DNA of 64,000 nt from Azolla caroliniana (lineage: Eukaryota > Plantae > Polypodiophyta). Positions 1 through 38,920 of the stretch are shown piece by piece. The notes under the pieces are model-generated. The model saw only the letters and a program-made list of their open reading frames with translations, was not told the origin of the DNA and did no database searches. Position 1 is the first letter of the stretch, and each line of letters starts with the position of its first letter. Both the position numbers and the translations under genes were made by a program. The stretch covers positions 13,330,001 to 13,394,000 of the forward strand of contig JBHGNT010000013.1 in NCBI GenBank assembly GCA_043228905.1. Reading direction: 5' to 3'.

Positions 1-2545
1 TTGGTCCACTCGGACGTCTGTGGCTCGATGCCACATCAATCTCTGGGCGGTGCTTTGTACTTCGTCAGTTTTATTGACGACTCGACTCGGAAGGTGTGGG
101 CTTACCCCATTAGAACCAAAGATCTAGTGTTCTCGATCTTCTTCGAATGGCTTGCAATGGTCGAAAACCAGACCAGTCGGAAACTAAAATGTCTCTGAAC
201 TGATAATGGAGGAGAATTCAAGTCTAACGAATTCGTCAAATTTTGCCGGGAATGCGGCATTCGACGTGAATATACGACACCTTATAGTTCGGAGCACAAT
301 AGAATTGTTGAACGCATGAATCAGACGATTCAAGAACGCATAGTATCCAGGCTCCAACACTCCGGACTGTTGGATGGCTTATGGGTGGAGGCTCTACTGA
401 CGACAGTACACATAATAAACATGTCGCCAAGTAGACCTCTAGGACTTAAAATACCTTAGGAAACATGGACTGGTAGTAAGCGGAATTATGACAAGCTGAG
501 GATCTTCGGTTGCGAGGCGTATCCCCTCATACCGAAAGACGACCGCCGGAAACTCGAACCGAGATCAAGGAAATGCATTTTCCTTGGATATGGACCCGAC
601 GGCGAGATCGGATACCGACTCTAGGACCTCGAGCACAGACAAATCGTCCGAAGTTCGGACGTCGTGTTCAACGACTCGTTGGCTACGCATAAAACGGCCG
701 AATGGCCTATTGAAGTCCAAAGGGTAATATTTTCCAAAGTGGCAACCCTTCATGAAGGCCCAACCCACAACACGAGATCGGTTTCATGGGTAACTGACAC
801 CTCTCGTCCTGAATCCACAGATTCAACATCGCCGAATGGCTCGGCTTCTGACCATCCGAAACCTATACCCGGTGCGACCAGTCGAGTCATACCTCAAAGA
901 TCCGAGAGACTGTTGCAACCTCTGGAAAGGTACTCTCCCGGAATTTTCTTTATTGACGTCGGCGAACCGACGTCTTATGAAGAAGCATCGGCATCTGCCG
1001 ACTCAGCCACCTGGCATTTGGCGATGGAGTTGGAAATGCACTCCATTCGCGCAACCAAGACTTGGGACTTGGTCGAATTACTGGAGAATCGACGTGCTCT
1101 TCCGTGTAAGTGGGTCTATCGACTAAAAGAGACGGTCGACTCGACCAACCCAAAGTACAAGGTCAGATTAGTTGCAAAGGGATTTTGACAAGAATATGGC
1201 GTCGACTTCGACGAAATCTTTTCACCAGTGGTGAAAATGACAACCCTTCTTTCATGCTCGGCGTCGTGGCCGCCGACAACTTGGAGCTGATTCAGCTAGA
1301 TGTAAAAGCGGCATTCCTCCACGGTGACCTACAAGAGGAAATCTATATGGAGCAACCGAAAGGCTTTGTGGCATCTGGCCAGGAACATCTAGTCTGCCGA
1401 CTCAGGAAGAGTTAATACGGCCTAAAACAGGCACCCCAACAGTGGTACAAGAAGTTCGACGACTTCATCTAGTCGGTTGGCTTCTCCAAGAGCGATGAGG
1501 ACCACTGTCTCTTCACCAAAACAGCTCAAGACGGGTCTCCCGTCTTCCTCATCATTTACGTGGACGACATCTACTCTTTGGCCGACATGCCGGAGAGCTC
1601 ACCGAACTCGTTCAGAAACTGCATTTGAAGTTTGCCATGAAGGACCTTGGTCCAGCAAGACACATACTTGGTATGAAGATCAGTCGGCATCGCGATAAAC
1701 GACAACTCTTCTTGTCTCAAACCGACTACATCGGACGTGCCTTGGAACGCTTCAACATGCACTCGGCCAAGTCTACTTCGACCCCACTCCCGCTCCCCAT
1801 TAACCTTCGGCTGTCTCAACGAGACTGCCTGACATCCGGTCCGGAGGGGGAAGATATGAAGTTAGTACCGTATGCACTAGCAGTCGGCTCCCTTATGTAC
1901 CCGATGGTCGCAACACGGCCTAATATTTCTCACACCGTAGGAGTCGTCAACAGATTCATGCACAACCTAGGCCGATCGCACTGGAACACAGTCAAGCATG
2001 TGTTCAGATATCTAGCTGGCACAAAAGACCATGACATTCTTTTTGGCCCAAACTCAACCTCAGGCGTAGTCGGTTACACCAACTCGGACTTCGCCGGCTG
2101 CGTGGATAGTTGGAAATCAACAACCAAATATTGTTTCAAATTCGGCAATGGAGCAATCTCGTGGAAGTCGAAAATTCAGGAGTGCATAGCCACCTCAACG
2201 ACCGAAGTGGAATATGTAGATGCGTTTGACGCGGCAAAAGAAGCTTTATGGCTCAGTCGGATGGCGCACACGTTTCGACAAGTCGACCTCGACTCGGCTC
2301 CAGTTGTCTGTAGCAACAGTCAGGGTGTTGTTGCTTTGTCAAAAAATCCGGTTCACCACAACGCCTCCAAGCATATCGACGTTCAATATCACTTTGTTTG
2401 GGATTGCATCATTTTAGGGAAAATCGGTCTCGAGAAGATATCCACAACCAATAATGTCGGAGATGCAATGACCAAGTGTCTTTCGGCGGATCGCTTCCGG
2501 TCCCTTCGGCACCAGATGGGCGTAACGAAAAATCGGTCCAGTTAA
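1..2545 (+). mobile_element. Ty1/copia retrotransposon pol (integrase-RT-RNase H), decayed, 5' part outside window
   Basis: Integrase VHSDVCG..SFIDDSTRKVW and TDNGGEF; RT LIQLDVKAAFLHGDLQEEIYMEQPKGF and IYVDD; RNase H GYTNSDFAG..ISWKSKIQ..HIDVQYHF. INT-RT-RH order is copia. Multiple stops and frameshifts. Confidence 0.95.
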
Positions 2546-2976: not shown

Positions 2977-3011
2977 GTAACTGTTGCTATTAAGAAATAA
3001 AACGTTTCTTT
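2733..3011 (+). repeat. Copia polypurine tract (GGGGGAG, 2733-2739) and 3' LTR starting TGTCG at 2740; right end uncertain
   Basis: PPT directly followed by TG; TATA-like ctatataaa near 2847; (CT)n tract; 41-bp block repeated at 2891-2931 and 2971-3011, then abrupt join to LINE sequence. Confidence 0.7.
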
Positions 3012-4250
3012 CAAGAGCCACGGACTAAGGGATGGCTTTTCGACTCATTAGTGACCCCGTCCCTCATGTATGCATCAGTAGTATGGGCTCCAGGTCTACC
3101 ATCTTTCATGTGGACGCAATTGGAGAGACCTTTAGTGGTGATGTTATCACGTCAACTCCGAAGCAAATCGACAGTACCACATGACATTATTAGAGCGGAG
3201 TTTAGCCTACCCCCGATGTTAGTAGAAGCACTCTTTCAAGTGGTAGCTTTTATTCATCGGATACATAGTCAACCACAAGATAGGATATCCCGTCGAGCCT
3301 TTGAGGCATCCCGATCCTTACATGTGTCTGGAGACACCAACTCTTGGTATAGCATTGTGGTGAGTTGGTTATTTGCAAATGGCATAGACATTAATAACCT
3401 ACCTCCCCTTAAGTACAACCATGGGACTGATCAAACTTTAATCTCTCGTGAAGATCGTAATAAAGTGATACGCCAAGAAATATGGCAAATCTACACTCGA
3501 TACAAATGGATCACCCCACGAGAGCCACTCCCATCTAAAATGGTGTACTATAAGGAACACTTCTTGCACTTCTCTAAGTTAGGGTTTATTACACGACCAA
3601 GATACCTAGATACTTTCTTATCAAATGCACTAAGGGTGGCCATTGGACAACTTAGGATATCATCTCACCAACTTGAGATTGAGAATGGTCGAGCTAATAG
3701 AGTCCCTAGAGAGGAAAGGCTATGTAGGTTATGCCACATAGAGATAGAGGATGAGTATCACTTCACATGCAAGTGCCCAACTTATGCCGAGATACGGGCG
3801 GAATACCAAGACATACTAGGACCCTCTCCCACCCTCTCCAAACTATTAGATACCCCGAGTGTAAAGAGACTAGGTAGGTATATCTTAGAGCTAAAACAAC
3901 ATAGGGAGGATAAATTACAAAGTGTTAATCATAACCCTTTTACTACTCATCAACATGTACCTAGTGTAATTTTTCAGGAACATGGGGAGACGATGAATGT
4001 GGATACACTTATGCCGCTCGGCCTCTCCCTTGAGGAAGCAGAAATACAAAGAGCAACCAAACGTCCTCGGATGTTGGGCTTCAACACAAGTCAACGTGGA
4101 GTAGAAAAGATTAAGAAGATAAGGGAACGTGAGCTACGTCGACTCGAAGCTATGGTTGGGGTACCTCTTACATGGGGACCACGGGCCACATCCACATCAT
4201 GGCAACCCTTTGACCCCCCGCTTCTCTTCGAGAGACTTGGATGGAAATGA
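3012..4250 (+). mobile_element. Non-LTR retrotransposon (LINE) ORF2 C-terminal part, RTE-X/L2-like
   Basis: Open frame with WLFDSLVTPSLMYASVVW (post-RT region) and LRISSHQLEIENGR..ERLCRLC..EDEYHFTCKCPTY (CCHC-type C-terminal motif). Confidence 0.85.
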
Positions 4251-5280
4251 AATTAGGCCTAGTATAGAATCATTCTCATTGTAGAACATGTTTTTTATAT
4301 AGAACATGTTTGTTGTTTTCTTAGAACTATTTAGCTTAAACTCTATTTTATCTTATTTTTATTTTTACTTTCGATGAATGGGTAAATATCCCATTTTTGT
4401 TGTACACCTTTTGTCTCATGGGCCAATTTTGGCCTTAGAAGACGTTAATATATCTTTCTTTCTTTCTTTCTTTCTCTCTCTCTCTCTCTATATCTTGTTC
4501 ATTCTCATACACAAGTCCTTCAACATCATAGATGTTGTTTGTTCTTCCGCACTTACGACCTTGTCCCCAACACTCATTGCATAGATACGATGCCACCATG
4601 AGATCATTCTTATGAGAAGCATTCGTAATGACGTAACCATGTGATGGGCCACGTGGGCCTACTACGAAAAGAGGGCTCATTTGACTTGACCATTAGGTTG
4701 CACTTTGGCGTATGCCATCGTAATTACGAGACTTGAGGTTAGGTAACGTACCAACATATTTTGTAGTAAACGAGGGGGAAATAAGGACTCTTGACATATA
4801 TGTTTCTTTTAAAAAAACATATATGGGCAAATGCCTCGCATATCTCTTATACGCATGAAACATTAAACATTGAAGAAGAGCAACTTACTTGGTTGGCTCA
4901 AGTGTTTAATGCATTTGTTCTCGAGGTCTCGAGTTCAAATATGACCAAGACCATCCAACATTGTTGATACATATGACTATAACACATGTTTAGACTTAAG
5001 GTCTAAGTGCACTTTGGGGTCCTCGTAATATGACTTAAAGAGCCGAAACCACATATGTGGACACAAAAACATAGTTTATTCTTAACATTTTTTTCGTGTA
5101 TAAACTATTCATGACGCAAACATAAATGGTTGAGCCTCGGGGAGCCGCCATGAAAAAAATCGATATAGAGATAAGGGAAAGACATTTATTTGTCACCCCC
5201 ATGGTTTTTAAGACACCTTTGTGTTACCATAGTAACCGTATCTTGAACCTCATCTCATACGTCTAGAGGGGTATTGACGT

Positions 5281-6095
5281 TGTCGTGCCTCTCGGCGCTG
5301 GATCATTACGTGAGTCGGGTGGGAACCGCTGGGGTTTTGGACTAGGAGAAAGGAGATCGTGAGATAGAGATGAATTATGAGTAGATAGCAAAGAGAAAGA
5401 TAAGAAACTCGTGAATCACACGAGTAGACTATATTAATTGGTACTTAGGTTGTTAAGAAAGAAGTAGATGCATAAATCGTGAATCCCACGAATAATTTTT
5501 ATATTGATCAATACTTAATCAAAAAAAAAAAACCAACCCTTATACATCTTTCTCTCCTCCTTATATAAGGACGAAAGAGGCTAAGCATAACTTCTTGCTT
5601 TTCTAAAGTGTTCATGCTCTCTAAATTTGCATGCTTTACTTTTCCCACTACGATTTCCTAAATTTAGCATTCATGCCCGCTAGATGTGCATGCGTAATTT
5701 TATTGGTGTGCATATAAATAAAGTTTTCACGCATTCTAAAAATGCATGACTTACCTTTTAATAAAGGTAGGTGAAAATAAAGGTTTTATAACCATTAAAT
5801 CTATTTTTAAAACACTTAGAATAAGTTAGTATAATGATAAGGCTGGAGTTTGTTTGTGTGGAGGTGTAGGGTTCGAATCTTGCCCTATGCACATAACAGA
5901 AAATTTAATGTTTCTTTTATTTACAATTGTGTCTCTTATTCCCGTAAGAGACTCTCACCGGCCTTCTTCATCCGGTTCTTCCTTGCCGATTCCTCCTTGC
6001 CGGTTTCTCTTCGTCCGGTTCTCACCGGGTATTTCATTCTCTATCCGGATGGACAAAATGCAATTTCCAAGTAGTGTGTAAATTACACTACGACA
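5281..6095 (-). repeat. 3' LTR of the Trp-primed gypsy element
   Basis: Direct repeat of 11759-12573 (about 30 differences by eye, mostly transitions); PPT AGAGGGGGTGAG on minus strand at 6096-6107. Confidence 0.95.
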
Positions 6096-9000
6096 CTCAC
6101 CCCCTCTAAACCCGCACATCCTCCGGTATGTGCCAAAGTTCCCGATGTTCTATATTTGCCTCCATCTGTATCGCTCTCCGAATCTTCCCTTATGTCGACT
6201 ACGAGTTGAAGTCCACTTTCTTCGCTATTCGCATCACCGCGATCTTTGTCCGGTTGCTCCTCATTGTCGGTCTCGTCTATGGCTACATAAGATTCGTTGT
6301 TAGTCCGCTTCTTGAAGATCTTCACCCGTTTCCCTGCTATAGGCACTCGTAGTATCGTTCCATCCAATTCACTTAGTCGGTAAGTTCCGTTGTCGAAAAC
6401 TTTCCGAACCTCATATGGGCCGAACCACCTTTTTGCGAACTTCCGCACCGTCGTATGTTGATGATCCAAACTACTGTCATAGACAATCACCTAATCTCCT
6501 TCTTCAATCTTCCGTGGTCATAGTCGGTGCTTGGTGTCGAACCGGCTTTTGTTCCGGAGTCGCGCTTCTTATTGTCGGCGTGACACTTCCGCTACATCTT
6601 TCGGTCTTCCCTCCAGTTGTCGTATCCGGACCGCTAGTAGTTCTTCCCGGCTCATCTCTTCCTTCCACGGTAACATTGTCCATGTCGCGATTGCGGTTTC
6701 CGTCGGCATTACCGGTGCTTGTCCGGTCATAAGTTCTGCTGGCATATAACCGGTTACGGAGCTATGCGTCGTCCGATCCGCCCATAGTGCATACAGGAGC
6801 ATATGCGGCCAATCCATCACCCTTTCGTCGCATGCTTTGGCAAGTGCTTTGACAATCGGACTATGTCCTCACTCGACCTTCCCGTTGGCTTCCGGATTGT
6901 ATGTCGTTGTTAGTGTTAACTGAACTCCATGTTTGGCGAAGAATCCCCTAGCTTTATCAGAGTCAAGTTCTCCCCGATCCGCAATCACCTGTCCTACGCA
7001 TCCGTACCTGCAAAACACTTCTTCCAAAAGAAATTGACATACTATAGAACATGTTTTTCTTCGTAGCGCCCGACCTTCTACTTGATTTGTGAGATCTTCC
7101 CGAGCTAACACCAAGTACTTCTTTTGTCCGATCCCGGTTGGCATGGCTACAATGTCGACCATCCATTTGAAGTTGATTGTCGGTGAGAATGTCGGATGTA
7201 ACTCATCTCGGTGTCAAACTCCGGAGTAGATTTGACACTTCTCGCAGCTTTCCGTGAACTCCGCGACATCTTTGTACATATTCTTCCACCAATATCTTTG
7301 CTTGATCTTCCCAAATGTTACTCATGTTCCCCAATGAACAACCCAATCAGATTCGTGAAATTCGGATTACCTAGTTTCGTTGCTCTTTTGTCCCGACTAC
7401 TCGAAGTGGTATGCCACCCGGTCTTTTCGGCTCCCTCCATAAAAATCCATTTTTCAAGAAGAACTTTCGGATTTGCCGTTTCTTACTTCGGATCTCGGCT
7501 CTCTTCTCTTTATTGTCCGATGATTCCTCGATTTCTCGTAGCATTTCCCGATCAACAAGCTTTCTCCCTCGTATTCTTCTTCCCGGAATTCTTGGATTAC
7601 GTCTACCCGGCATATGTGCTCCGAAGCAAAGTAGTCTTCGGAAACTTCTTCATTATTGGATTCAGTTATATCATCTCCAAACCGCGCCCTTGATAGCATA
7701 TCCGCTACATCATTGTCTTTTCCGGAGATGTGTCTTACCTCCAGATTAAGTGACTTAACATATGCAATCCATCTTAGCATAGCCACATCCGGTATTGTAC
7801 AACACCGCATCATCCCGAGTATCGGAAGACAATCCGTTTCGATCACTACTTCGGCTCCGATCAAATAATCTCGATTTGATTTGATTGCCGACACGACTCC
7901 CCATAATTCTCTTTTAACTTGTGCATATCCGCGTTGCCTTTCGTTGAGAACCTTTGCTCCAAATTGGATCGGATATCGCGAACCTTCCAGATCGGCTTGA
8001 TTGATGACCCATCTGATTCCGGTTGGACTTGTGTCAACCGTTACTATGATCGGTTGGTCATAGTTCGGCTTCTTTAGTGCTTCTGCCCTCCGTAGTGATT
8101 TCTTGAGCTTCTTCACGACTTTGGTATGCTCCGGTTTCCATTCAAACTTCTTACCCTTCCGCAACAAGTGATAGAGTGGGTCCGCTATATGTGCATAGTG
8201 CGGAATCCATATGTGGTAGAATGCACATGCTCCAAGAAACCTTCGAACTTCGGATTGTGCCTCGCATACTTCTTTCATAGCTTGAATCGCATCGATCTTG
8301 GTTGGTGACGGTCTTTGGCCGTAGGGCCCACATAGACGCCCGACTACCAATATTTCTTCTTGTCCGAATGCCGATTTCTCTCTAGAAAGTGTTAGATGCA
8401 CATCTTCTAACTTCCGTAACACTTTCTCACAATCACGGATATGGTTGACTACAAACCTTCGGCATCCCTGTTCATCCATAGCTTCATCTTTTTCTTCCAC
8501 CACACACCCTTTCATCAGAATGTCATCTAGGAACGGCATCGTTATCTCCGGTATGCAATCCCGAAGCACCTTGTTCATCGCATTCATCATATGTGCGACT
8601 GAGTTCGTCGCGCCTTGTGGTAGCGTACACATCCGGACTAATCCTATCGATGTCCGCATGGTAGTGATGTCTTGGCTCTCCACGGCTAGTTGGAATTGGT
8701 CATATCCTGAATATAGGTCTCCGATGGAGTATATCGCACGGCCGGCAAATGCTTCCGCAAATTCGTCCACTATCGGACCGACTCCGGAGTTCCGGATCGT
8801 GACCTTGTTTACCGGTTGCAAATCTTGAATAAATCGGAGTGACCCATTCTTCTTCGGAACCGTAAACCATCGATTTGAGTACGGAACATTTGATGGCTCT
8901 AGAATCCCCATCGCCACCTTCTCCTTGAGCAAGTCGATGACTTTCGGAATATGCGCCCGCGGCACCAAAATCGGCTTCGGGCTCCACGGCACATGGTCAA

Positions 9001-11720
9001 TCGTGAAGATCACCATTGGCTCCACTATCTTCGGATCAACGCACCCTATCTCGTTCGATGTGAATGCAAATGCTTTTCCATGTTGTTCCAGCATCTCACA
9101 AAACCGTTCTTCTTCTTTTTGTGAGAGGAAACCACCTCCACCGATCCGAAGTTTCTTTCGGGTCTCATCCGAGAAGGCATGTCCGATATCCATGGACTTC
9201 CGAAGTGTCGGATCCCCCGAGACTTCTTTCCTCTTTTGTTCGCTATCTGCGGGTAACGGTCTTGCGGCCGGTTTCACTTTCTTCTCCACGGTCTTGTATT
9301 TCGTAATTACCATTGCTTCTTCTTTGCGGAGCGCATCCGGCCCCATTTTCACAATGATCTCGTACATCTCGACCGACTCCACCGGAATTACCTGGTCTTC
9401 TTGGTTTTTATCTTCCGCGAGCTCTTCAAGCCGTTGTAGTGTGCTCCCATAGAACACTTCTTCGAGTATTCCCACGATTTCTTCGTCTTCTTTTATTATT
9501 GATGCCGACCGTAACTTATCCTCCACTTTTCGGTATTCTTTCTTCATTCCTCCGGTTACGGCCGTGTATGTGGATGCCCCATCCGGACCGATTCGTACTT
9601 GTTTTGCACCGAGAGGTTTCTTCCTGTGTGGGGTATCAGGGCTTCTCAGACTATCACTTCCCCAGTCCGCAACTGTCCGCTCTAAAAATCCATTCTTGTT
9701 TGGGACAAGAGCTCTCTCTTGTTCCTTTCATGATTTTCCGGCACCGTTAGGAATTGGACGGATTTCCCTCCGTTTTGGCTCCGAATTCGTTCAAAAGCCG
9801 AACCGCTATCGAGCACCTTCGTCTCCATCCGTGATGTCGTGATAAAAGGTTGCCCGAGGATCATGGAGTGTGAGACCTCGTCTTGTACGAAGAAATTTTG
9901 GTCGATCTCGACATCCCCGATCTTCACCGTCACATCCGGACAAGCCGCAAATAGATCTTCCGTTGCTTTAGTGGCCGCCCGGATCTTCCACCCATGATTC
10001 GTGTTAATAGGCCACTTACCCTTCCGGTAGAATTCCTTGGACATCAAGTTGATCTCCGATCAGTGATCGTCCAATGCTAGCACGGGTTCTTTGATGTTAC
10101 CGATTCGGACCGGAGTCTCCGTAGTTGCGCGTGCCCAGTGTGGCTTTGTGTAGTGAGAATTCGGTATTTCGTCCTCCAATTCGGTGTCATTCATTAGAAC
10201 GGTATTTGCATTCACCCTTTGAGCGTTCTCCTCCGTACTTTGCCTTTTTCTCTTCACGAGATCCACAAGAAGATCGTGGAACTCCTTCTTCGCTATTCTG
10301 AGTAATTCTCGAAGCGAAAAATCTACCCGGCTATCGAGGATTCTCTCCTCGAACACCTTTTTCAAGTCCGTTTGTTGTTCGATGTCCGAGGCGAGCTTGA
10401 ATGCCGGAATCATCTTTTCTTTTCCCTTACCTCCGGAGTTCCAGCTTTCTGGTGTCTTCGATGGACCGGCCGCCTCATCCGTGCGCCATCGCTTCTCATC
10501 TACATACACTTCATGCAATTGGCACAAAGCAAACACGCTATTCTTATTGACGGGGCACTCCCATGCCATAGCTTCCCGGATGCCTTCCGCGGTGCTTCGG
10601 ATCTCGTTAGAGTCGGTTTTCTCGGTGTTTTGTAGCACTTCCGGCAAAAAAGACACCTTTGCTCCCGATGACTCCCCGACACGTATTCCCGCGGTTGTCG
10701 CGTAATTGTTCTTCGCCGCTATTTCCTCCTCTAGGACCTTCTTCATGCCGCCTTTTCGAAAGTTCGGTCGGAGCGGCTTCCGAGAGTCCATCGAATGAAT
10801 CCAATTTCCCTCGTAGTAGATAAGATCCCATCGTAACACCTCCTTGTGCTCGTCGCAATCCCTCCGATCGTGTTCGGTGCTATCACACCATATACATCGA
10901 CGGTCCATATACTTGGAGTTTGTGGGACGGTCTCCCGACTTCTTCACCATCACGATTTTCAGATTCTCCATATCTTTCAGCAACTGCTCCACCGTGGTTG
11001 CGTCAATCCCCTTCTCGGTCGTAGTCTCTCGAGCCCGCAATTGATGGTCCTCCAATCCGAATCTCGGTTTCGGAATCGGTTCTGAAACCCTCTTCTCTTC
11101 ATTAGCAAGCCACTACCCCCTCTTCGTGTATCGCAGGACGATATCCCGCACGCTTTCCCACGTTTCGGTGAGGCCGCTTTCGGTGGTCGTGTCCTCCAGA
11201 AGCACTCCGAGATCTTTCCGGTCCCAGATGTCCACGGCTCGCAAAAACATGATGACTTTGACCGATGCAAGAATAGTTTGATCTCTCGCGGACAACCCCC
11301 CGAACCGACTTTCAAATGACGAAAACACTTCGAGGACCTTCAGTCCCTTACCTGGTGTTTCCACCCAATCTTCGAATCCCCTCCGCGTTGCCTTGGAGAA
11401 GTCCTCGATGGCGAACGTGGTTTTAACGCTTCTTCAAATGCTTCCCACGTCGGATTTTGCTGTTGTAACCCGTGGATACTCCCTTGAAGCCCGTCGGTCG
11501 CCACCCGGTTGAAGGATGTCACTTGCAGTCCTTCCGAAATCCGGCACCGGAGCATCTCTGCCTTGTAGTCCTGCAAATATCGCGACACATACTTACCGTT
11601 GAATTGCCCGTTGCGTTGCACGAGCCGCTCTACTACTGTTGAAATCTCCGACATCGCGTGTTGTTCTTGTAGCATCCGCTCGAACATCGCCATCATATTG
11701 TTAGCTTGTTGATTCTCCAT
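6083..11720 (-). pseudogene. gag-pol polyprotein of the Trp-primed gypsy element, disrupted
   Basis: Gag with CIWCDSTEHDRRDC knuckle; protease ALDDH*SEINLM; RT YSGYDQF..LPQGATNS..PFLDD; RNase H VDTSPTG..ETDC; integrase DRGE..YNPEANGKVE and GPY motif (WFGPYEV). Several stops and frameshifts. Confidence 0.9.
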
Positions 11721-11735
11721 CTCCTTGCCACCCGT

Positions 11736-11754
11736 ATTCACGTCGGGTTCACCA
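11736..11754 (-). promoter_or_regulatory. Primer-binding site complementary to tRNA-Trp 3' end
   Basis: Plus strand ATTCACGTCGGGTTCACCA matches the 3' end of plant cytosolic tRNA-Trp plus CCA as I recall it; 4 nt from the 5' LTR. Confidence 0.85.
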
Positions 11755-11758
11755 CTTG

Positions 11759-12573
11759 TGTCGTGCCTCTCGGCGCCGGATCGTTACGTGAGTTGGGTGG
11801 GAACCGCTGGGGTTTTGGACTAGGAGAAAGGAGATCGTGAGATAGAGATTAATTATGAGTAGATAGCAAAGAGAAAGATAAGAAACTCGTGAATCACACG
11901 AGTATACTATATTAATTGGTACTTAGGTTGTTAAGAAAGAAGTAGATGCATAAATCGTGAATCCCACGAATAATTTTTATATTGATCAATACTTAATCAA
12001 AAAAAAAAAACCAACCCTTATACATCTTTCTCTCCTCCTTATATAAGGACGGAAGAGGCTAAGTATAGCTTCTTGCTTTTCTAAAGTGTTCATGCTCTCT
12101 AAATTTGCATGCTTTACTTTTCCCACTACGATTTCCTAAATTTAGCATTCATGCCTGGTAGATGTGCATGCGTAATTTTATTAGTGTGCATATAAATAAA
12201 GTTTTCACACATTCTAAAAATGCATGACTTACCTTTTAATAAAGGTAGGTGAAAATAAAGGTTTTATACGCATTAAATCTATATTAAAACACTTAGAGTA
12301 AGTTAGTATAGTGATAAGGTTGGAGTTTGATTTTTGTGGAGGTGTAGGGTTCGAATCTTGCCCTATGCACGTAACAAAAATTTTAATGTTTCTTTTATTT
12401 ACAATTGTGCCTCTTATTCCCGTAAGAGACTCTCACCGGCCTTCTTCATCCGGTTCTTCCTTGCCGATTCCTCCTTACCGGTTTCTCTTCGTCCGGTTCT
12501 CACCAGGTATTTCATTCTCTATCCGAATGGACAAAATGCAATTTCCACGTAGTGTGTAAATTACACTACAACA
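11759..12573 (-). repeat. 5' LTR of the Trp-primed gypsy element
   Basis: Direct repeat of 5281-6095, adjacent to PBS. Confidence 0.95.
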
Positions 12574-15500
12574 ACGTGAGATCATGATATTGATTAATGT
12601 TTGCCCATGATATGTTTACATCACGACATGATGTTATGACTATTTGTTTGACCTTATCCTATTTCTTTGCCAAAAATAACCATTCAATGGCTCAAAATAA
12701 CGACCCGAAGTCATTCGCTCAAGCGGAAGGATCTCAAGGAAATCCTCCTAGACAAATGTCCATTGAGATGTATTTTTCGCAAATAACCCAATACCTTAGT
12801 TTCACCGCTCAACAGATGACCAAACTTCGGCAATCTCAAAGTGCTCTCGAGGCACGTGTCATTAGTTTATAATGAGAGACTAATAGACCTGATGAGCGGC
12901 AGGGTGAGCCATCATTTGTCGTTAAGCCATTTACGAGAGAAAAAAAGGAAAGAACCGAAGAAGCAATCTACACATGCCTAGGCCGATGGGAGTCTCATTT
13001 TGAGATCTATCCCACGCTAGATAGTACGAAGATTGCATATGTCGGCCGAGAACTAGGGGGTAAGGTTGCCGCCTGGTGGCGTGCGCTCCGTACTTGGGGA
13101 AATTGCCCGATACCTGGACAGATTTTGTCACAGTTTTCAAGGGCCAATTTCTGCAACCTCCCTCTCGAACCGAGGCAGCACAAGCTTTAATGAACCTCTC
13201 TAGCAGGAATTTTTCCTCGCTAGAAGACTATGTCCACCATGCTAGAACCCAAATCCAAAAATCGGGTCTAGAAGGGACAATTGGTTAATAGCTTGTTTTG
13301 TCAATGACATCCCCAATTCGAACTATCACTGGATAGTGCAGGATAAGGATTCAAAATCCTTCGAATAGAGTGTTGAAATAGTTCTTCGCTATCAACGCAC
13401 TTCGAAGAAGGACCACAACAAACCCAACGAAGCCCCCGGGACTAAGCAGTCGCAATTCGCTGGGAAATGCAAGACACCCAATGAATTCATGGATCGCGAT
13501 TGTAAGTGATAACATCCTTTTTGTGTATTCTACAAAAAGAAGGGTCATACAAAAGAGCAATGTCGAAAGCTCCAACGGAAAGAGCACGATAGCAAAGCTA
13601 AAGATGCAGACCATAAAGGTCAAATTCCTAATGTCCTTTAGGTCTATACACATCATTTAAGTAATTGTCAATGTTCTTTCCCTCAGTATGTATTGGGTCC
13701 CAATGATTTACTTCGTGCAAACGGGTATATCAATGGATCTCCCGTACAATTTTTGTTTGATTCGGGAAGCTCACACAACTTTGTGAATGATCGTTTGGTT
13801 CAAATATGGGGAATCCAAACCACCGTAAGTGATCACACCTATACGGTGCACTTGGTTGATGGAAGAGTACAATACATCAACAAGGCGATTCATTCATTAG
13901 GAATTTCAATTGACACTTATATAGAGGAAGTAGACTTCCATGTAATGAATCTTTGTACCACTGATGTAATACTGGGTTATCCCTGGTTCTATAATAAAAT
14001 CTCTTCTTTATCTATCGATTGGGTTCATCAGTCCATTTCCTTTGTACTGAACGATTGTACTCATTTTATTCAATGTGTAAAAAAACAATCCCTCTCGATT
14101 GTTTCCTCTCCATCAATATCCGAGTTGTCTTGTTCTACTTTATTTTATTGTATACTTGATCCGGACATTCACATTTACAATATTGATAATGTCTCGGTTC
14201 AATTAACATATTTTGAACAACAACAACTTGATGAAATCTTAAATGATTTTCATGATGTTTTTCCAAGTGAACTACCAGATGGGTTACCTCCTAAACGTAA
14301 TATAGACCATCATATAGATATTGTACCTGGCGTTGCACCATAAGTATACCTCCTTATCGCTTAAGTCGATCCGAAGAGGATGAGGTATCTAAGCAACTCA
14401 AGGACTATTTACGAATGGGTTATATACGTTATAGTAAATCTCCATGGGGTGCACCCGTTCTCTTGGTTAAAAAGAAAGAGGGCACATGGCGTATGTGTAT
14501 TAATTATCGACGCTTGAATAAAGTGACGATCAAGAATTCGTATCCATTGCCCCGGGCTGACGATCTAATTGACCGTCTCCAGGGAGCTTGGTATTTTACG
14601 AAACTTGATCTCCGTACTGGCTACCATCAAATTTGTATAAGTGAGGATGATGTTCCTAAAACAACATTTTGTACGCACTATGGCCATTATGAGTTTTTGG
14701 TTATGCCTTTTGGTTTGACCAATGCTCCAACTACATTTCAACAAGAAATGAATGACATTTTCCAAGAACAACTTGGCAAATTTGTCGTTATTTTCTTGGA
14801 TAATATTTAAGTTTATAGCCGTACATTACAAGAACATGCTAAACCTGTCTGCTTTGTTTTACAAACATTGCGTGACAAATAGTTTTATGCGAAGATCTCA
14901 AAATGTGAGTTCTTCAAGAAATCAATTACTTATCTTGGACATCTCATAACCGAAGGAGGAGTTGAAATTGATCCTTCTCGCATTGATAAAATCAAGCTTT
15001 GGTCCACTCTTTGGAATATTCGAGAAGTTCGATCATTCCTTGGTTTTGTCAGGTTTTTGTGAAAATCCCTTTGTAATTACTGCCAATTGACAACGCCATT
15101 TATTGATTTTCTAAAAGGTCAAACGCGTAAGTCTACAAAACCTATTGTCTGGAATGCTACACTAGACCTCACCTTTAAGGAACTCAAGGACCTGGTGTGC
15201 AAGGCTCCTTCAGTTCTTTTACCTAATCCTTCAAAACCTTTTGAGGTTGAAACCGATGCAAGCGATTATGCTATAGGTGTTGTCTTATATCAAGATGGTA
15301 AACCAATAGCATTCGAGAGTAAGAAACTTGATTCTGCTCAATGTCGGTATATCGTTCAAGAAAATGAATTATTTGCAGTTATACATGCGCTCAAAACATG
15401 GCGCCATTATCTTTATGGAAATTGCTTTGTGGTAACTACGGACCACGAGTCCTTGAAATATTTTTGTGACCAACAAGACCTGAAAGGTCGTAAGGCACGA

Positions 15501-16675
15501 TGGGCTAATCTCATCCAGGACTTTGATTTTCCATAAGATATCGTAAAGGTTCCATGAACACTGTCGTTGATGCACTAAGGCGCATCCGTGAAGTTAACAT
15601 GCTTAGCTTCACTGAAATATCCTTAGATCTTTATGATCACCTTCGAGGAAAGTATCCTGATGACAGTTATTTCACAAAATACTGGGCAAGAGTTTAGTCT
15701 GGAACAGACACCACCACATCCTTGAAGGAATACTTCCACATTGTTAACGGTCTGCTCTACCGTAATGGGAAGGTTTGTGTTCCAGATTTGCCTGAGCTCA
15801 AAAAGAGAATTCTTTTTTAATGCCATGATGCACCCACAATAGGGCACCCTGGAATACATCATACACTCATTCTCATCTCCACTCAATTCTATTGGCCTAA
15901 GATGCGCCCTAACATACATAGTTATGTGACTAAATGTCACCAATGTCAGGTTAACAAAGCCGAGCGACTTAAAGCTGCAAGACCTTTACATCCCTTGGAC
16001 ATTCCCAATAATAAATGGGAAAGTATATCCATGGATTTTATTGTTAGCCTTCCTCGCACCCAAAAAGGCCATGATGCCATCTGGGTTGTGGTTGATAGAC
16101 TAACTAAAATGGCCAGATTTATTGCTACTAAAACCACGGTAATAGCTCTTGAATTGGCTTACCAATTCATTGACGAGTTATTTCGTTTTTATGGGTTACC
16201 GATGGATATTGTGAGTGATCGAGATCCAAAGTTTACAAGTGACTTCTAGATGCAAGTCTTCACGAAGTTAGAAACTACATTGAGCATGAGCTCCACGGAT
16301 CATCCTCAATTTGATGGACAGACAGAACGAGTAAATCAAATTATTGAGGACATGCTTCGAGCATACATTGGTGCAAAACCAACAAAATGGGAACGTTATC
16401 TCCCAATTTTGGAGTTTGCTTATAACAGCTCCAAGCATACGTTGACGAGATATAATCCTTTTATGTTGATGTATGGTTTTGAGCCACGAGCCCCAATTGA
16501 TATTAATACACATCATGATGAGTTGCGAAGTACGCAAAACTTTCTTCGGGATACGCAAGATATGTTGCATATTGCATGAGATAATATAAAAATTGCTCAA
16601 GATAGAGCGCATTTTTATGCCGATCATCATAGGCAACCTCGTGTATTCAACCCTGGACAGAAGGTATTTTTACGT

Positions 16676-17346
16676 TGTCGTGTTGCTACGCGCGTGCGTG
16701 GAGAAGGGCGGGACCACAGGGGTCTTGGACTAAGGAGTAGAGGAGAAGGAATCGGACACGGAATGGAAACTTTGCTCAAGAAGAGGAAGAATGAACAAGA
16801 GGAAGATGGAGACAAGATGAACAACAAGATGTATTAAAACGAGATGAACGATTACAAAATGGTAGCCGCATAGGCCGCACCAAACGACTACTCGAAACCC
16901 TAACCCTAACCCTAACGCTCGACCTATGTGGTATACCTCGCACACTCAAAATAGGCAACCCCCACAATGGTGCCTTCCCTCTCCTTTTATAGCACAAGGA
17001 GGGAAGACCGTTTACAAACGTGAGACTAAAATATCCCCTTTCATTCAAAGGGGATATTTGCCTTGATTTGGGGGAGGGTGAGATTGATGGCCCCTTTAAC
17101 TCCCACCTCCTCACAAACAACTAGGTACCTATGTACCGCATAGTACCTCTCTCTCTCTCTCTCGCGTGGATGTGCGCACAAGACCACATCGCCTTTATAC
17201 CTTAGGGATCTTATGGGGCATTTCTAGCACCATACCCTTTACCCCTATTATTATTACAAATACATTATGTACGTGTGCAACGTTGCAGATCGCACTTTGG
17301 CTCTCATTGCTCGGGTTTCCGCTCGTGGACGAAAATCTTCACGACA
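16676..17346 (-). repeat. 3' LTR of the non-autonomous element
   Basis: TGTCGTG..CACGACA termini; about 12-14 differences from 20810-21478 by eye. Confidence 0.95.
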
Positions 17347-20300
17347 TCCGCCCCCACCTAACCGCACATCCACCGGTATGTGCCAAAACATAGGGGAGAG
17401 AACACGAGATTTTCGGCCACGACGACCGGCCGAGTTCCTTAGCGTCCTCGTGGGCCCGCCCGGTTTTGTCCTCCACTTCGAGCAAGACCACCCCGTCCAC
17501 ACGAACCACCACCGCCTTCCGGTCCACCATCCTCGCCGACTGGTCTCGAACCGTCGGCGCCACCCGATCCGCCACACTCGACGATGTTCGCCGAGTTATT
17601 GCCTCCACCCGATCCGCCACGTCCACCGTGGATCCTTGAACCACCGACTATATCCGACCCGTTGTATACGATGCCCGTGCTTTCCTCCACGTTCGGTCCT
17701 CCCAAACGTCGTCGCCGACCCGGCTGCTCTTCCTTTGTCCGCCTCGTATATCCTCCGGATGCGCTCCCGGTCGTATGTCGGAGTCCACCCTTTGCGTGCC
17801 ACACATCTCGGCGTGCCGACTCTCTCCGCTCCGCGCTTGCCTTCCATAGGTTTTCCCCGTTGTTCGCCGTGCTCTCTCAGGTAGAGTGTACTGTCATCCC
17901 GACCTCCGTGTCGGTGTCCCTCGAGGCTCTCGTTACCGCTTCACCTCGACTTGCGCCCTCTTGGCCCGCTTGGCCTTGCATGCCCTCCGGGAAGCCGCGC
18001 TTCCTCTTCCCGGCGTGTAGCCCGTTACTCTCTGCGCACCTTCTTCGGTTCTCAAGACACGACTCTCCGCTCATGCCGATCGCGCTCGGCCCATGTCGTC
18101 GGTCTTGGTGTTTCGCCGCACCGTCCTTCGTCCCGCACTTGCCTCTCTAAGGCTTGACCCGACTGTCATCGTCGGTCAATCGTTGTCGTCCATCGGCCGT
18201 ATGCATGCTTGTGTCTTGGCCCTCCACCGGCCGTATTGCATGTGTCTCGTGTCGCGCTTCCGCCGTAGACCGACCTCCGCGTCGGTCTCCAACTCCTCGC
18301 CGCCACCCACCGTTTCTTCGGTCTTCCTTCGATCCGCGACCGCCGATGCCTCTCGGATAGGTGTGGAGGGTTCCTCCCACTCTCGGTCCACCACCGAGTC
18401 CTCGCCTCTCAAAGGCTCAATCGGTCCACCGTTTCCGGTCACTCGTTGACGCTCCCCCGAGTGCATGGTTGTTCCTTGACCCTCCGTCGGCCGTAGTGCA
18501 TGCTTCACTTCACGCTCATCCGCCGTAGACCCGACCTCCGCATTGGTCTCTTCGTCCTTCCCACACCGGGCATCCGCTCCGGTACCCGATTCCGCATTGT
18601 CTTCCAACTCCTCGCCGCCACCCGCCATCTCTTCGGTCTTCCATTGATCCGCAACCGCCGAAGTCTCAAGCATAGGTGTGGAGGGCTCCTCTTGCTCTCG
18701 GCCTCTCACCGACCCGTACTCGTCGTGCCCGGTTAGCCTCCTTCTCACTCTCACCGGCTCCCACCGTAACCGTACCCGGCCGGCTACGGATCAATCAAAC
18801 AATCCCAGTCTTGCCAGCTTCCTTCGGTTCGGGCCCGGTTGACCGGCCCCCGCTTCACTCTTCTTCCGCTCCACCTCCCGGTCGGGTCGGATTACCTACC
18901 GGCTTATCTTTCGGTCGGGTCGGTTCCCGACTCGCTCCTCGATGCCGCTCCGGACCTCTCCTTCGGTCTTTTCGCACGTGCCCACTCCGGGCCTCTCATC
19001 CTCATGGCCATCGCCCATCTCCCCGGTCTTATGTCCGTGCTCGGGCGCAACCGCCGAAGTCTCCGGTCCCGGTGTCGAAGGATCTCGCCTCCGTCCGCTA
19101 CAAACCTCCTCTTCGTCATTTTGGTTGCCCGCCTTGCCGCCGCCACCGTCCGTCTCTCTAGGTCTCACACCGGCTCTCGGGCCGGTTGCCGGAGTCTCTA
19201 GGACCGGTGTGTGGAAGGTCGCAGCACCGCCGCTCATCTCCTCTTCTTCCTCAATTTTTCCAGCCTCGAGTATGCTCGCGAAATCCTCGTAGAATGTTTC
19301 GGGCAACCGCGTCCCAAAACTTTCGCCCACTCTCGAAGTGGCGTCCATTGCTCCGTAGATATCAGCCTCATCCATGGTCGTCCTCTTCCCACAAGTCGAG
19401 AGGGTCGCTCGCTCCGCACCCTCTCCCACATCGTCTCCGTGGTCGCCCACCTTGCCGCCGCCACCGTTCGTTACCCTAGGTCTCACGCGGGCACTCGGGC
19501 CGGCCGCCGGGGTCTCTTGAACCGGTGCGCGTAAGGTAGCAACGCCGCCGCTCGTCAATGCTATGCCTGTAGCCACCTCCATTCGGACATCATCGTCCGT
19601 GGCTACCCCTCCTCCGTATATGCAAGCATCAATTATACTTGCCGCCTCCTCTTCCACGGTCTCCTTACCGTTGTCTCGGTTGCCCGCCTTGCCGCCGCCA
19701 CCGCCTGTCGCTCTAGGTCTCACGCCGGCAATCGGGCCGACCGCCGGTGCCTCTAAGGCCGGTGTGTGTAAGGTCGCGGCACCGCTGCTTGTCTCCTCCT
19801 CACTCGATGTTTCGAGCCGCCATGTCCCGAATCCGTAGTTACCGGCCTCCATGGTCGTCCATTCGCCGCAAGACGAGAGAGTCGCTCTTTCCGCACCCTC
19901 TCCCATGTCACCATCGTGGTCGCCCGCCTTGCCGCCGCCACCGTCCGTCACTCTAGGTCTCAGACCGGCTCTCGGGCCGGTCACCGGAGTCTCTAGGCCC
20001 GGTGTGCGTAAGGTCCCAGCACCACCGCCCGTCTTCTCCCCGCTCGATGTTTCGGGCCTCCATGCCCGAACACCCTCATGTCCGCTCGAACCGGCGATCG
20101 CCGCCTCACCGTCCCCGACCTCGTCCTCAATCGATCTTTCTCCGCATGTCGAGAGGGTGGCTCGCTCCGCACCCTCTCCCGTGGTACCGATGTACCATTC
20201 TCTTTCGACCTCCTCATCCTCCGATCTGCTCGGGCCCGACTCCGCAATAAGCCCTTCTTCGGCTTCGACTTGTGCCTCTACGATCTCGTACGCTTCCCGC

Positions 20301-20765
20301 ACTAAGGCTTTGATGTCGAGCTCCTCCGAACCGATTTGCGTTGAGCTCTCTTTCGGCGGTAGTGCGTAGTCGGTCGCCGCTCGCGGGCCGCGTTGTGGCC
20401 GACCGCCTCTCATCGCATTGTATGCACGCCCATTCCACCTCGTTCCAATCTTCGGTGAGGCCGTACGCCCCTTCATCGTCTTCGAGGTAGGGAAAAATGG
20501 CCATTCTCCCCCTTTCGTTGACCGACTTCAAGAATAGTGGGACCTTGTCCGCCCCCACCGATTCTTGATCTCGGACCGAAAGTTGGGAAAACCAGAGATC
20601 GAACTCCCGGAATGCCTTCATTGCGCTTCGAGGAGCCTTTGCCGACGACACCCATAGATCGAACTCGCGTCGATCGTACTTGTACGCCTCTTCCCGTCTT
20701 TCTCTCCTTCTTGCGAAATCCCTTGCCATTCTCATAATTACTTCCGCGATGTCTCCGGCTTCCAT
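17339..20765 (-). pseudogene. Truncated gag followed by long Glu/Gly/Thr/Ala-rich repetitive ORFs (frameshifted chain)
   Basis: ORF 20214-20792 aligns by eye to gag of the 5281-12573 element (FSQLSVRDQ..KVPLFLKSV..LED..GLTEDW vs FGGLSARDQ..KVIMFLRAV..LED..GLTETW); then ORFs 18896-20476, 18176-18754 and 17339-17644. Confidence 0.75.
19131..20030. repeat. Four dispersed copies of a ~105-bp GC-rich module inside the non-autonomous element
   Basis: ccttgccgccgccaccg..ctaggtctca..cgggccg..ccggtgtg near 19131, 19450, 19687 and 19927; encodes TPxLETPxxGPxAGxRPRxTxGGGGKxG on minus strand. Confidence 0.9.
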
Positions 20766-20787
20766 CTCCTTCCTCCCTTGCCGCCTC

Positions 20788-20805
20788 TTCACGTCGGGTT
20801 CACCA
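20788..20805 (-). promoter_or_regulatory. tRNA-Trp primer-binding site of the non-autonomous element
   Basis: TTCACGTCGGGTTCACCA, identical to 11737-11754, 4 nt from the LTR. Confidence 0.85.
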
Positions 20806-20809
20806 AATA

Positions 20810-21478
20810 TGTTGCGTTGCTACGCGCGTGCGTGGAGAAGGGCAGGACCACGGGGGTCTTGGACTAAGGAGTAGAGGAGAAGGAATCGGACACGGAATGG
20901 AAGCTTCGCTCAAGAAGAGGAAGAATGAACAAGAGGAAGATGGAGACAAGATGAACAACAAGATGTATTAAAACGAGATGAACGATTACAAAATGGTGGC
21001 CGCATAGGCCGCACCAAACGACTACTCGAAACCCTAACCCTAACCCTAACGCTCGACCTATGTGGTATACCTCGCACACTCAAAATAGGCAACCCCCATA
21101 ATGGTGCCTTCCCTCTCCTTTTATAGCACAAGGAGGGAAGACCGTTTACAAACGTGAGACTAAAATATCCCCTTTCATTCAAAGGGGATATTTGCCTTGA
21201 TTTGGGGAAGGGTGAGATTGATGGCCCCGTTAACTCCCACCTCCTCACAAACAACTAGGTACCTATGTACCGCATAGTACCTCTCTCTCTCTCGCGCGTG
21301 GATGTGCGCACAAGACCACATCGCCTTTATACCTTAGGGATCTTATGGGGCATTTCTAGCACCATACCCTTTACCCCTATTATTATTACAAATACATTAT
21401 GTACGTGTGCAACGTTGCAGATCGCTCTTTGGCTCTCGTTGCTCGGGTTTCCGCTCGTGGACGAAAATCTTCACGACA
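20810..21478 (-). repeat. 5' LTR of the non-autonomous element
   Basis: Direct repeat of 16676-17346, adjacent to PBS. Confidence 0.95.
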
Positions 21479-21884
21479 ACGTGTACCTCACAATTCTAGG
21501 ACATTGTCTAAGGGTAAGTGTGCTAAGTTAGCCCCACGGTTTTGTGAACCTTTTACAGTCCTCAAACGCATTGGGTCCTCAGCCTATCGTCTTGCTCTTC
21601 CCGATGTCGTTGAAATTCATCCAGTTTTTCATGTGAGTCGTCTAAAAGAACTTCTAGGTTCTGGCAACAATACAGTTACAACTGAAACTCTGGTTACTTT
21701 TGAAGAATTATCTTCTAAACCACATGTATCAGAAAGAATTCTCGATGTTAAAATAAAAAAATTACGTGCTAAAGAAATCCGAGAATTTAAAATAAAATGG
21801 ATGGATAAATCAATAAAAGATGCCACATGGGAACATGAAAATACACTCAAAACTAACTTCCCTAACTTTCCATTACAAGAGTGT

Positions 21885-22341
21885 TGTTACGGGCATGACC
21901 ATATAATATCCCGTGGTGAGAATTTATTGTAGTATTCTATACACGTGGATAAGTGTGAGGGTTAAACGAGAGTGTAAAGAAGGGGAGGATTACTTTTAAT
22001 CCTCGGGATTGAGACAACCCATTAGGCCAAGTGTGAACTTGTCTGGGGGCCTTGGGTATCGCTATAAATAAGAGGCCTAACTACCCTCATTTCATTATCT
22101 TGTTGACTATGTCGAGACTTTGTCTTGTGGTGGGTCAACTCTTGTAGCGAGCGCGCCAGCACCAGGTACGACTTGATGCCACGACGGTGGTATGGGACGT
22201 CGATCGAGGCTTGAGTCCATGTCGATCCCTTCGCTCGGGGGTGGTCAAGTGGATCAGCACCCTTCTTTTTCTCTCTCCTTTCTATCTATCTATACATATT
22301 CTATCCTTATCTAATGCTTACATTAGTTCATGTCTCTAACA
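21885..22341 (+). repeat. LTR-like segment (TGTTA..TAACA) after the chromodomain; no partner in window
   Basis: 5-bp inverted termini and TATA box ctataaata near 22062; no PPT, TSD or matching second copy found. Confidence 0.55.
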
Positions 22342-22800
22342 TCCTCAGTCCACAAGAGCGATTGATCTCTATCCACCTATCTGCCTATAGCCCTCCTATC
22401 CCCCACTTCAGCCAAGTCTAGGTAGTCCTCAATCCACATGAGCGATTGATCTCTATCCCCCTATAACTCTCATGTCCCCCACCTCAGCCAAGTTCAGGTG
22501 GCCCTCAGTCCACAAGAGCGATTGATCTCTATCCGCCCATAGCCCTCTTGTCCCCCACCTCAGCCAAGTCCAGGTGGCCCTCAGTCCACAAGAGCGATTG
22601 ATCTCTATCCGCCTATAGCCCTCTTGTTCCCCACCTTAGCCAAGTCCAGGTGGCCCTCAATCCACAAGAGCGATTGATCTTTATTCGCCAATTGCTAGCT
22701 CGTACACGATGGCCCTCCTGTCCCCCACCTCAACCAAGTCTAGGTGGCCCTCAATCCACATGTCAAGCGATTGATCTTTATCCATCGATTGTTAGCTCAT
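22342..22800. repeat. Tandem minisatellite, ~6 copies of a 76-bp unit
   Basis: ccctcagtccacaagagcgattgatctctatcc recurs near 22342, 22425, 22501, 22577, 22653 and 22747. Confidence 0.92.
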
Positions 22801-23200
22801 TTTTTGTCACTAGCCCCGTCCAACTATCAGAGCCGGCAGTTCTACGAGGATGTCCTCAATGTCATTGTAGCTCAACTCGGTGTCCAACAGATGTTTACGT
22901 CCCCATACCATCCTAAGACAAATGACCTCACCAAACGCCTCAACAAGACACTCAAGAAGGAGATTGGCGCTTACATCGATCCATGCCACAAAAACTAGGA
23001 TCAAATCTTGCCTTTCGCCACCCACGCCTACAATACATCCGTACAGGCGTCAACATGGATCAACCCTTTTTTAGCACTCTATAACCCTCGCCTCCAACCA
23101 GAATCGTCCATCAATGTCCATTTGAAACCTACCAACATGGATAATGCCACTTGGGAGCTCCATCTCCACTAGATGCTCCCCCTCCTTCGACAAGCCATTG
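22800..23200 (+). mobile_element. Ty3/gypsy integrase remnant
   Basis: FTSPYHPKTNDLTKRLNKTLK..*DQILPFATHAYNTSVQAST integrase core motif with stop. Confidence 0.8.
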
Positions 23201-29900: not shown

Positions 29901-30821
29901 TTATAAATTTTCAGGTACCCTAGGTAGTGATATGATAATGTAATATGCGAATAGTTTAGCTCATCTAATGTGTCGATTGCCATTCTGTGGATTTAAAATT
30001 ATGACTTCTTTTCTTGTCCCTTTTGGGAATATCTGATAAAATTGGAATGATACAGTTAAGATTAGCAAGACTCCTGTGCAAGGATGACATGTTCAAATCA
30101 TGAAATCGTCCGAGTTTCTTATGAAATGTTCCTTTTTACATCTTCAAATGGTCAAAATGACCCAACAAAAGTTCTTGTACCTCTTAAAATGAAAGAGAAA
30201 AAAGATTATACCAAAGTACCATTTATTTTCTTATACTCCCATCCTCTGCAGTTAATTCATGTTGGTTATATTCCTCAGTGGATAGTACTATTTTATATCA
30301 TGAACATGGATGCCTGCAGAAAATGTGTCATTCCTGTACTGGCAAATAGAAGGTGCATTTTAATAAAACTATTTATTTCAGATATTCCACAAGAAGATGC
30401 CTCCAGAGTCAGTGGATTTAGTGTCCAGATTGCTGCAATATTCACCAAATCTTCGATTTACTGCGGTGAGCTTTGGCTTGTAGCTAAAATTTTCTGGGTG
30501 TTTTATGATGACATTTCTGAAGTAACCCTTTCTATGCTTATTCAGTTGGAAGCTCTTCTTCATCCATTTTTTGATGAGTTACGTGATCCTAATGCTCGGC
30601 TTCCAAATGGAAAATCTCTTCCACCACTCTTCAACTTCAAGCCACCAGGTGAGCCTTAAGAAGAACATCTTTGTAAAATGTATCTAAGTTGATGAGGGTC
30701 TTATTATTAATAGTTATTGATTGACCATGTCTCAGAGCTTAAAGGTGCCACCCTTGAGATGATACAAAAGCTCATCCCTGAACATGCACGGCGCCAAAAT
30801 CCATTTTTGGGGTTTCAGTAG
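24975..30821 (+). CDS. GSK3: GSK3/SHAGGY-like protein kinase (ASK family), 12 coding exons
   Basis: Exons 24975-25019, 27502-27594, 27692-27751, 27855-28127, 28201-28275, 28402-28458, 28534-28674, 28761-28811, 28907-29002, 30382-30465, 30546-30648, 30736-30821, all GT-AG. Motifs [45 protein letters not shown]. First exon less certain. Confidence 0.95.
26626..26960. repeat. ~150-bp tandem duplication ending in (AT)n, GSK3 intron 1
   Basis: aaccaatcatttaaccg..gtgtacttatgt at 26626 and 26776, near-identical, each followed by (AT)n. Confidence 0.9.

Positions 30822-38858: not shown

Positions 38859-38920
<62 letters not shown>

What the first reader, a model, noticed from the sequence alone, without database searches (positions are those of the whole stretch)
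5277..21482. Two related LTR elements both inserted at ACGT with 4-bp TSDs: candidate sequence-targeting gypsy family
Seen: 5281-12573 is flanked by ACGT/ACGT (TG-ACGT-GA) and 16676-21478 by ACGT/ACGT (TT-ACGT-GT). Excising the second plus one ACGT restores the host integrase frame exactly, confirming a 4-bp TSD. Known: most plant LTR elements make 5-bp TSDs with little sequence preference, and ACGT is the palindromic G-box/ABRE core and contains a CpG. Inference: this family's integrase may prefer ACGT(G), possibly depending on methylation. With only two sites, chance is not excluded.
Basis: partly seen in the sequence, partly recalled or inferred. Interest (0 to 1): 0.8.

Follow-up and report, generated by a model that had tools for sequence, protein, structure and literature searches.

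The report
CpG-targeting Phygy-type retrotransposons
Two jumping genes in this plant DNA both sit in a duplicated ACGT, and their relatives mostly sit beside a four-base site with CG in the middle; this habit is already published for the moss 'Phygy' retrotransposons, to which they likely belong.

Summary
E1 (5281-12573) and E2 (16676-21478) are LTR elements, each flanked by a 4-bp ACGT duplication; uninserted copies of both host repeats carry one ACGT. The preference is real but wider than ACGT. Of 83 distinct junctions of related LTRs in metagenome contigs, 66 are NCGN (background 3.7%), 15 are NCAN/NTGN, 2 are other. The CA/TG share matches CpG decay inside the same LTRs (15/81 vs 85/523). 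ACGT is the commonest site (24/83); T first and A last are avoided; no G-box signal. This is published: REXdb lists Phygy (Physcomitrella non-chromovirus Ty3/gypsy) with 4-bp NCGN duplications and mostly tRNA-Trp primer sites. E1 and E2 share these traits (tRNA assignment recalled); intact relatives lack chromodomain and extra RNase H. A tree with Phygy references could not be built. E1 is a decayed coding copy; E2 has no pol. Methylation dependence is untested. Verdict: likely new members of a known lineage, with a modest refinement (VCGB, ACGT modal, non-autonomous partner). Interest low.

The parts
5277..5280 (.). E1 left target-site duplication ACGT
   Evidence: empty site in L040
5281..6095 (-). 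E1 3' LTR (815 bp)
   Evidence: PPT adjoins at 6096
6096..6106 (-). E1 polypurine tract
6099..7453 (-). E1 integrase region, broken by six in-frame stops and out of frame with RT-RH; no chromodomain-like tail
   Evidence: intact relatives scanned
7454..9727 (-). E1 stop-free frame with RT and RNase H (RVT_1, RT_RNaseH)
9682..11730 (-). E1 gag/protease-like region, broken by stops and a frame change; no Pfam hit in the two pieces scanned
   Evidence: role inferred from position
11738..11754 (-). E1 primer-binding site (complement of a tRNA 3' end; tRNA-Trp from recall)
   Evidence: same site in 25 PBS-side junctions, some with changes
11759..12573 (-). E1 5' LTR
12574..12577 (.). E1 right target-site duplication ACGT
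12660..16675 (+). Host chromovirus-type Ty3/gypsy element, decayed: gag-like, protease, RT, RNase H, integrase up to the E2 insertion
16672..16675 (.). E2 left target-site duplication ACGT
16676..17346 (-). E2 3' LTR (671 bp)
17347..17358 (-). E2 polypurine tract, next to a 36-bp stretch 87% like the end of E1 pol
17359..20788 (-). E2 internal region: no pol, GC-rich imperfect repeats, gag-like piece at 20436-20663
20789..20805 (-). E2 primer-binding site, identical to E1's over 17 bases
20810..21478 (-). E2 5' LTR (669 bp)
21479..21482 (.). E2 right target-site duplication ACGT
21480..21932 (+). Rest of the host integrase: Tf2-like SH3 domain and chromodomain
   Evidence: PF24626 E 1e-19, PF00385 E 5e-7

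Best explanation
E1 and E2 are LTR retrotransposons with 4-bp duplications whose relatives sit almost always at CG-centred sites, and they likely belong to the known Phygy lineage of Ty3/gypsy elements. Shown: structure, 4-bp duplication, empty sites, NCGN usage with ACGT as the mode and T-first/A-last avoided. Inferred mechanism: the family integrase cuts the two strands 4 bp apart around a central CpG, bends the target at that flexible pyrimidine-purine step and reads the bases as a weak palindrome (V-CG-B); repair of the gaps duplicates the four bases. E2 has no pol and is likely copied and inserted in trans by the enzymes of intact E1-type elements, which would explain the shared primer site, ends and target rule. 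CA/TG sites are likely CG sites that decayed after insertion. Two ACGT sites in one window are an unremarkable draw (about 8%) from this preference.
For: 66 of 83 junctions NCGN against 3.65% in the same flanks (binomial p 1e-78); E1-type 30 of 36, E2-type 36 of 47; 70 of 123 with nothing dropped, 33 of 36 among the closest LTR matches. CG ends at offset -2 in 66, at other offsets in 0-10. No NTAN site in 83 although TA is twice as common as CG in the flanks. CA/TG share 15/81 vs CpG decay 85/523 inside the LTRs (Fisher p 0.63); copies with CA/TG sites have more decayed LTRs (0.24 vs 0.15, p 0.03); solo LTR L046 has ATGT/ACGT. Right ends: 5 of 8 NCGN. L070 links an ACGT junction to a pol 96% identical to intact P0123. 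REXdb: Phygy 4-bp TSD 100%, NCGN, tRNA-Trp 81%, no extra domain, n=186. Central YR preference strongest for short duplications in retroviruses (abstract of PMC4422553).
Against: No Phygy reference sequence was available, so the lineage rests on shared traits; none of the 240 listed homologues (of 490 + 925 hits) is named as Physcomitrium. E1 (7,293 bp) is below the published Phygy range (7,656-9,968). Most junctions show one side only; of 5 contigs with both ends of an LTR and no internal part, 2 agree and 3 disagree (two of these share one right flank, so collapsed assembly is likely). The loci are relatives (LTRs 66-86% identical to the window's), from few assemblies, selected for intact ends. 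L047 has CCAT on both sides, so some insertion at CA/TG is possible.
Confidence: 0.83

Rival explanations
1. Same behaviour, but a sister lineage outside Phygy (for example a liverwort/fern/moss clade of non-chromoviruses that shares the CpG rule).
For: Named homologues are from Riccia, Calypogeia and Adiantum nelumboides, RT 65-74% identical where measured; Phygy was defined from Physcomitrella only; E1 is shorter than the Phygy range.
Against: The combination 4-bp NCGN + Trp-type primer site + no extra domain is unique to Phygy in the REXdb table; Phygy is reported in the liverwort Apopellia.
Confidence: 0.11
2. The integrase needs a methylated CpG, and so steers copies into silenced repeats without a chromodomain (compatible with Phygy membership).
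For: Near-obligate CG; both window sites lie in high-copy repeats; target CpGs decay like methylated ones; 3 of 82 flanks match E1 itself at the junction.
Against: Decay after insertion is expected for any silenced copy; flanks are CpG-rich (o/e 0.85 vs 0.42 in the gene-bearing part of the window), which fits plain sequence reading as well; retroviral local preferences are largely independent of chromatin (abstract). No methylation data were seen.
Confidence: 0.15
3. A strict ACGT(G) / G-box recogniser.
For: ACGT is 24 of 66 NCGN sites against 5.3% expected (p 2e-14); in run X5 nine contigs share the E2 LTR end plus ACGT and then diverge (this view favours the window's own letters).
Against: 42 of 66 NCGN sites are not ACGT; 12 different NCGN words occur; CACGT in 3 of 24; ACGTG in 0 of 3 right ends.
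Confidence: 0.02
4. Chance coincidence of two random 4-bp sites.
For: Only two sites in the window.
Against: 66 of 83 NCGN vs 3.65% background.
Confidence: 0.005

Closest known systems
Phygy clade, non-chromovirus Ty3/gypsy (Neumann et al. 2019, PMC6317226)
   Same: 4-bp TSD, NCGN preference, Trp-type primer site, compact element with pol filling the inside, no chromodomain, no extra RNase H; nesting into chromoviruses between INT and CHR is reported for Phygy in P. patens (PMC6911290), close to where E2 sits.
   Different: E1 is 7.3 kb, under the published range; tree placement untested; here the outer bases are biased (A>C>G>>T, T>G>C>>A) and a pol-less partner family follows the same rule, neither seen in the passages and table read.
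TatI clade (REXdb)
   Same: 4-bp TSD and tRNA-Trp primer site.
   Different: TatI has an archaeal-type RNase H between PROT and RT and no reported NCGN rule; none detected in E1 or five intact relatives.
Selgy clade (REXdb)
   Same: Non-chromovirus, compact, 4-bp TSD.
   Different: tRNA-Ala primer site, about 5 kb, no sequence preference reported.
Retroviral intasomes with 4-bp duplication (PFV, MLV; PMC4422553 abstract)
   Same: Palindromic local preference with a central pyrimidine-purine step.
   Different: Their preference is weak; here one step, CG, is close to obligatory.

Membership tests
Ty3/gypsy LTR retrotransposon (E1) | LTRs with TG...CA ends, PBS, PPT, order RT-RH-INT | tested here: met
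Phygy | RT/RH/INT group with REXdb Phygy sequences (the primary criterion) | not testable with these tools
   REXdb files 1 and 3 too large to read; no Physcomitrium-named protein among listed homologues
Phygy | 4-bp TSD | tested here: met
Phygy | NCGN target preference | tested here: met
   66 of 83
Phygy | PBS complementary to tRNA-Trp | tested here: inconclusive
   A conserved 17-base tRNA-type PBS is shown; its assignment to Trp is recalled; look-ups gave no confirmation
Phygy | No chromodomain, no extra RNase H | tested here: met
   Pfam on E1 pieces and on P0002, P0003, P0007, P0123, P0129: RT, RH, INT only
Phygy | Length 7.7-10 kb (descriptive; the paper calls size of little weight for classification) | tested here: not met
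   E1 7,293 bp; E2 4,803 bp without pol
TatI | Archaeal-type RNase H between PROT and RT | tested here: not met
Chromovirus (E1/E2) | Chromodomain after integrase | tested here: not met
   E1 RT is 29% identical to the host chromovirus RT piece

The most novel reading that the evidence does not exclude
This lineage, reaching from mosses to liverworts and ferns, has an integrase that reads CpG directly and requires it to be methylated, so that coding and pol-less copies home into silenced repeats, including their own CpG-rich bodies, without any chromodomain: a methylation-guided LTR integrase.
Probability: 0.13. Interest if true: 0.7.

Novelty: new member of a known kind. Interest (0 to 1): 0.22.

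Why it matters
As shown, it confirms in another plant genome a published oddity (the one plant LTR lineage with a target sequence rule) and sharpens it: CG close to obligatory once decay is counted, outer bases biased to A...T, same rule for a pol-less partner. That helps annotation (tools set to 5-bp TSDs would miss these). How the integrase reads CpG, and whether methylation matters, did not complete in the papers found by my searches; intact relatives (P0123, P0129) make this testable.

Tried and rejected
No host genome is held, so no genome-wide copy count. Viral contigs: no relative of the RT; the LTR-end pattern gave 2 matches, neither like the window. First read-laying did not list loose ends at the E1 termini; internal variants crowded them out. 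A 14-3-3 exon search to name the host lineage gave only distant fused proteins. tRNA confirmation failed. ESM Atlas gave generic RT clusters only. Earlier notes of the scan: nothing on this family. No LTRs of the host chromovirus were found around it. PMC12810828 and PMC7466625 passages say nothing on CpG-directed LTR insertion. Rejected: 5-bp or 3-bp duplication, G-box targeting, general YR-step preference (no TA), chance.

Full report
Observation. Self-comparison of the window finds two LTR pairs at the stated ends, with K2P 0.035 for E1 and 0.020 for E2. Both elements lie on the minus strand: a polypurine tract adjoins the left LTR and an identical 17-base primer site adjoins the right LTR. 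Flanks agree at four bases, ACGT, and not at 3, 5 or 6. For E2, contigs from all four runs laid pass from 21479 into sequence like 16642-16671, the uninserted host with one ACGT (8, 8, 9, 1 contigs), and the host integrase frames on the two sides fit. For E1, one of 123 loci (L040) holds a homologue of the host repeat with a single ACGT between both flanks.

Anatomy. E1 (7,293 bp) has a stop-free RT-RNase H frame; its gag region and integrase are broken by stops and frame changes. Intact relatives exist (P0123, P0129; RT 93% identical); these and three others show RT, RH and INT only. E2 (4,803 bp) has no pol; it keeps a gag-like piece (34% over 76 aa to E1), the primer site and a short pol-end/PPT stretch. 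E2 interrupts the integrase of a decayed chromovirus just before its SH3 and chromodomain. Named homologues of E1 are from Riccia, Calypogeia and Adiantum nelumboides, plus one short-contig record under a bacterial name; most are unnamed. A non-seed land plant host is inferred, not shown.

Target preference. The 121 loci gave 123 matches. I dropped 13 not linked to either LTR by the unspecified middle of the match, 25 primer-side junctions, one duplicate and one overlapping match, leaving 83. The four bases next to the LTR were NCGN in 66, NCAN/NTGN in 15, other in 2 (one, L049, looks like a degraded primer-side junction). Background NCGN in the same flanks is 3.65%. With nothing dropped the count is 70 of 123. 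E1-type: 30 of 36; E2-type: 36 of 47. ACGT is 24 of 83, or 24 of 66 NCGN (95% interval 25-49%) against 5.3% expected. Among the 66, T first or A last occurs 6 times in 132 positions against 35% expected. C precedes ACGT in 3 of 24. Right ends in the same loci: 21 hits, 11 PPT-side, 1 duplicate, 1 from a dropped locus, leaving 8: ACGT three times, CCGC, GCGG, CCAT, ATGG, ATAG. Of five contigs with both ends of one LTR and no internal part, L047 (CCAT/CCAT) and L046 (ATGT/ACGT) agree and L008, L057, L071 do not; the last two share one right flank, which points to collapsed assembly. Limits: mostly one-sided junctions, relatives rather than exact copies, few assemblies, bias to intact ends; p-values assume independence.

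Decay. At majority-CG positions inside the same LTR ends, 85 of 523 are TG/CA (some may be subfamily differences), against 15 of 81 at the target (Fisher p 0.63); copies with CA/TG targets have more decayed LTRs (p 0.03). TA, twice as common as CG in the flanks, is never the central step in the 83. So the original target was likely CG in nearly all cases; a minor use of CA/TG is not excluded.

Mechanism. Inferred: a symmetric integrase complex cuts 4 bp apart around CpG, helped by the flexible pyrimidine-purine step (shown for retroviruses in PMC4422553; abstract and outline seen) and by base reading, since other flexible steps are not used. E2 likely borrows these enzymes. Whether the CpG must be methylated is open.

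Comparison with what is known. PMC6317226 (passages, all of section 13, supplement file 5) states that Phygy elements prefer NCGN and lists 186 elements, 4-bp TSD in 100%, tRNA-Trp in 81%, 7.7-10 kb, no extra domain. Its files 1 and 3 (per-element TSDs, reference proteins) were too large to read; they may already show the A...T bias and would allow the tree. PMC6911290 (passages, all of section 8) reports 4-bp TSDs with GC-rich centres and AT-rich outer bases, 4-bp TSDs commonest in Phygy, and Phygy nested in Tcn1, six of them between INT and CHR. PMC12885004 (two passages) reports Phygy in a liverwort. Searches for NCGN with retrotransposon, Phygy and CpG- or methylation-directed gypsy insertion listed no paper on the mechanism; the library lacks most subscription journals. 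The tRNA-Trp label for the primer site is recalled.

Verdict. It works like Phygy (high confidence) and is likely a member (primary criterion untested). New member of a known kind; interest 0.22.

Noticed in passing
window 5281-12573 and 16676-21478: Both elements are CpG-rich (o/e 1.19 and 1.16) against 0.42 in 23500-64000, so they supply their own targets; L066, L088 and L050 are junctions whose flanks match E1 pol, integrase and LTR.
   Followed up: partly
L060 (3707 bp): Two E2-type LTRs 2,354 bp apart, each with a primer site on one side and a PPT on the other: a tandem array of a short pol-less element, or an assembly artefact.
   Followed up: no
83 junction flanks: A second CG directly before the target CG (CGCG) in 10 of 83, and CG at 7-8 of 83 at three offsets further out: targets may sit in locally CpG-dense DNA.
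   Followed up: no
window 16896-16915 and 21030-21049: Three AACCCT-type telomere-like units inside the E2 LTR.
   Followed up: no
window 5124-5280 and 12578-12585: E1's host is a high-copy repeat of unknown kind, perhaps the leader of the chromovirus that follows; no LTR pair found for it.
   Followed up: partly
window 30016-30119 (+): Full-length U6 snRNA match, 74 bits.
   Followed up: no
window 625-2545 (+) and 2994-4250 (+): Ty1/copia RT remnant (RVT_2), then a 418-aa frame without Pfam hit that resembles the end of a LINE ORF2 (by eye).
   Followed up: no
window 22342-23200: Tandem repeats of about 76-84 bp running into another gypsy integrase remnant (rve_3, weak).
   Followed up: no
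window 27819-28713, 34809-45002, 49094-49369, 62370-62795: Host gene exons: protein kinase, rhamnogalacturonate lyase, Alg14, 14-3-3.
   Followed up: no
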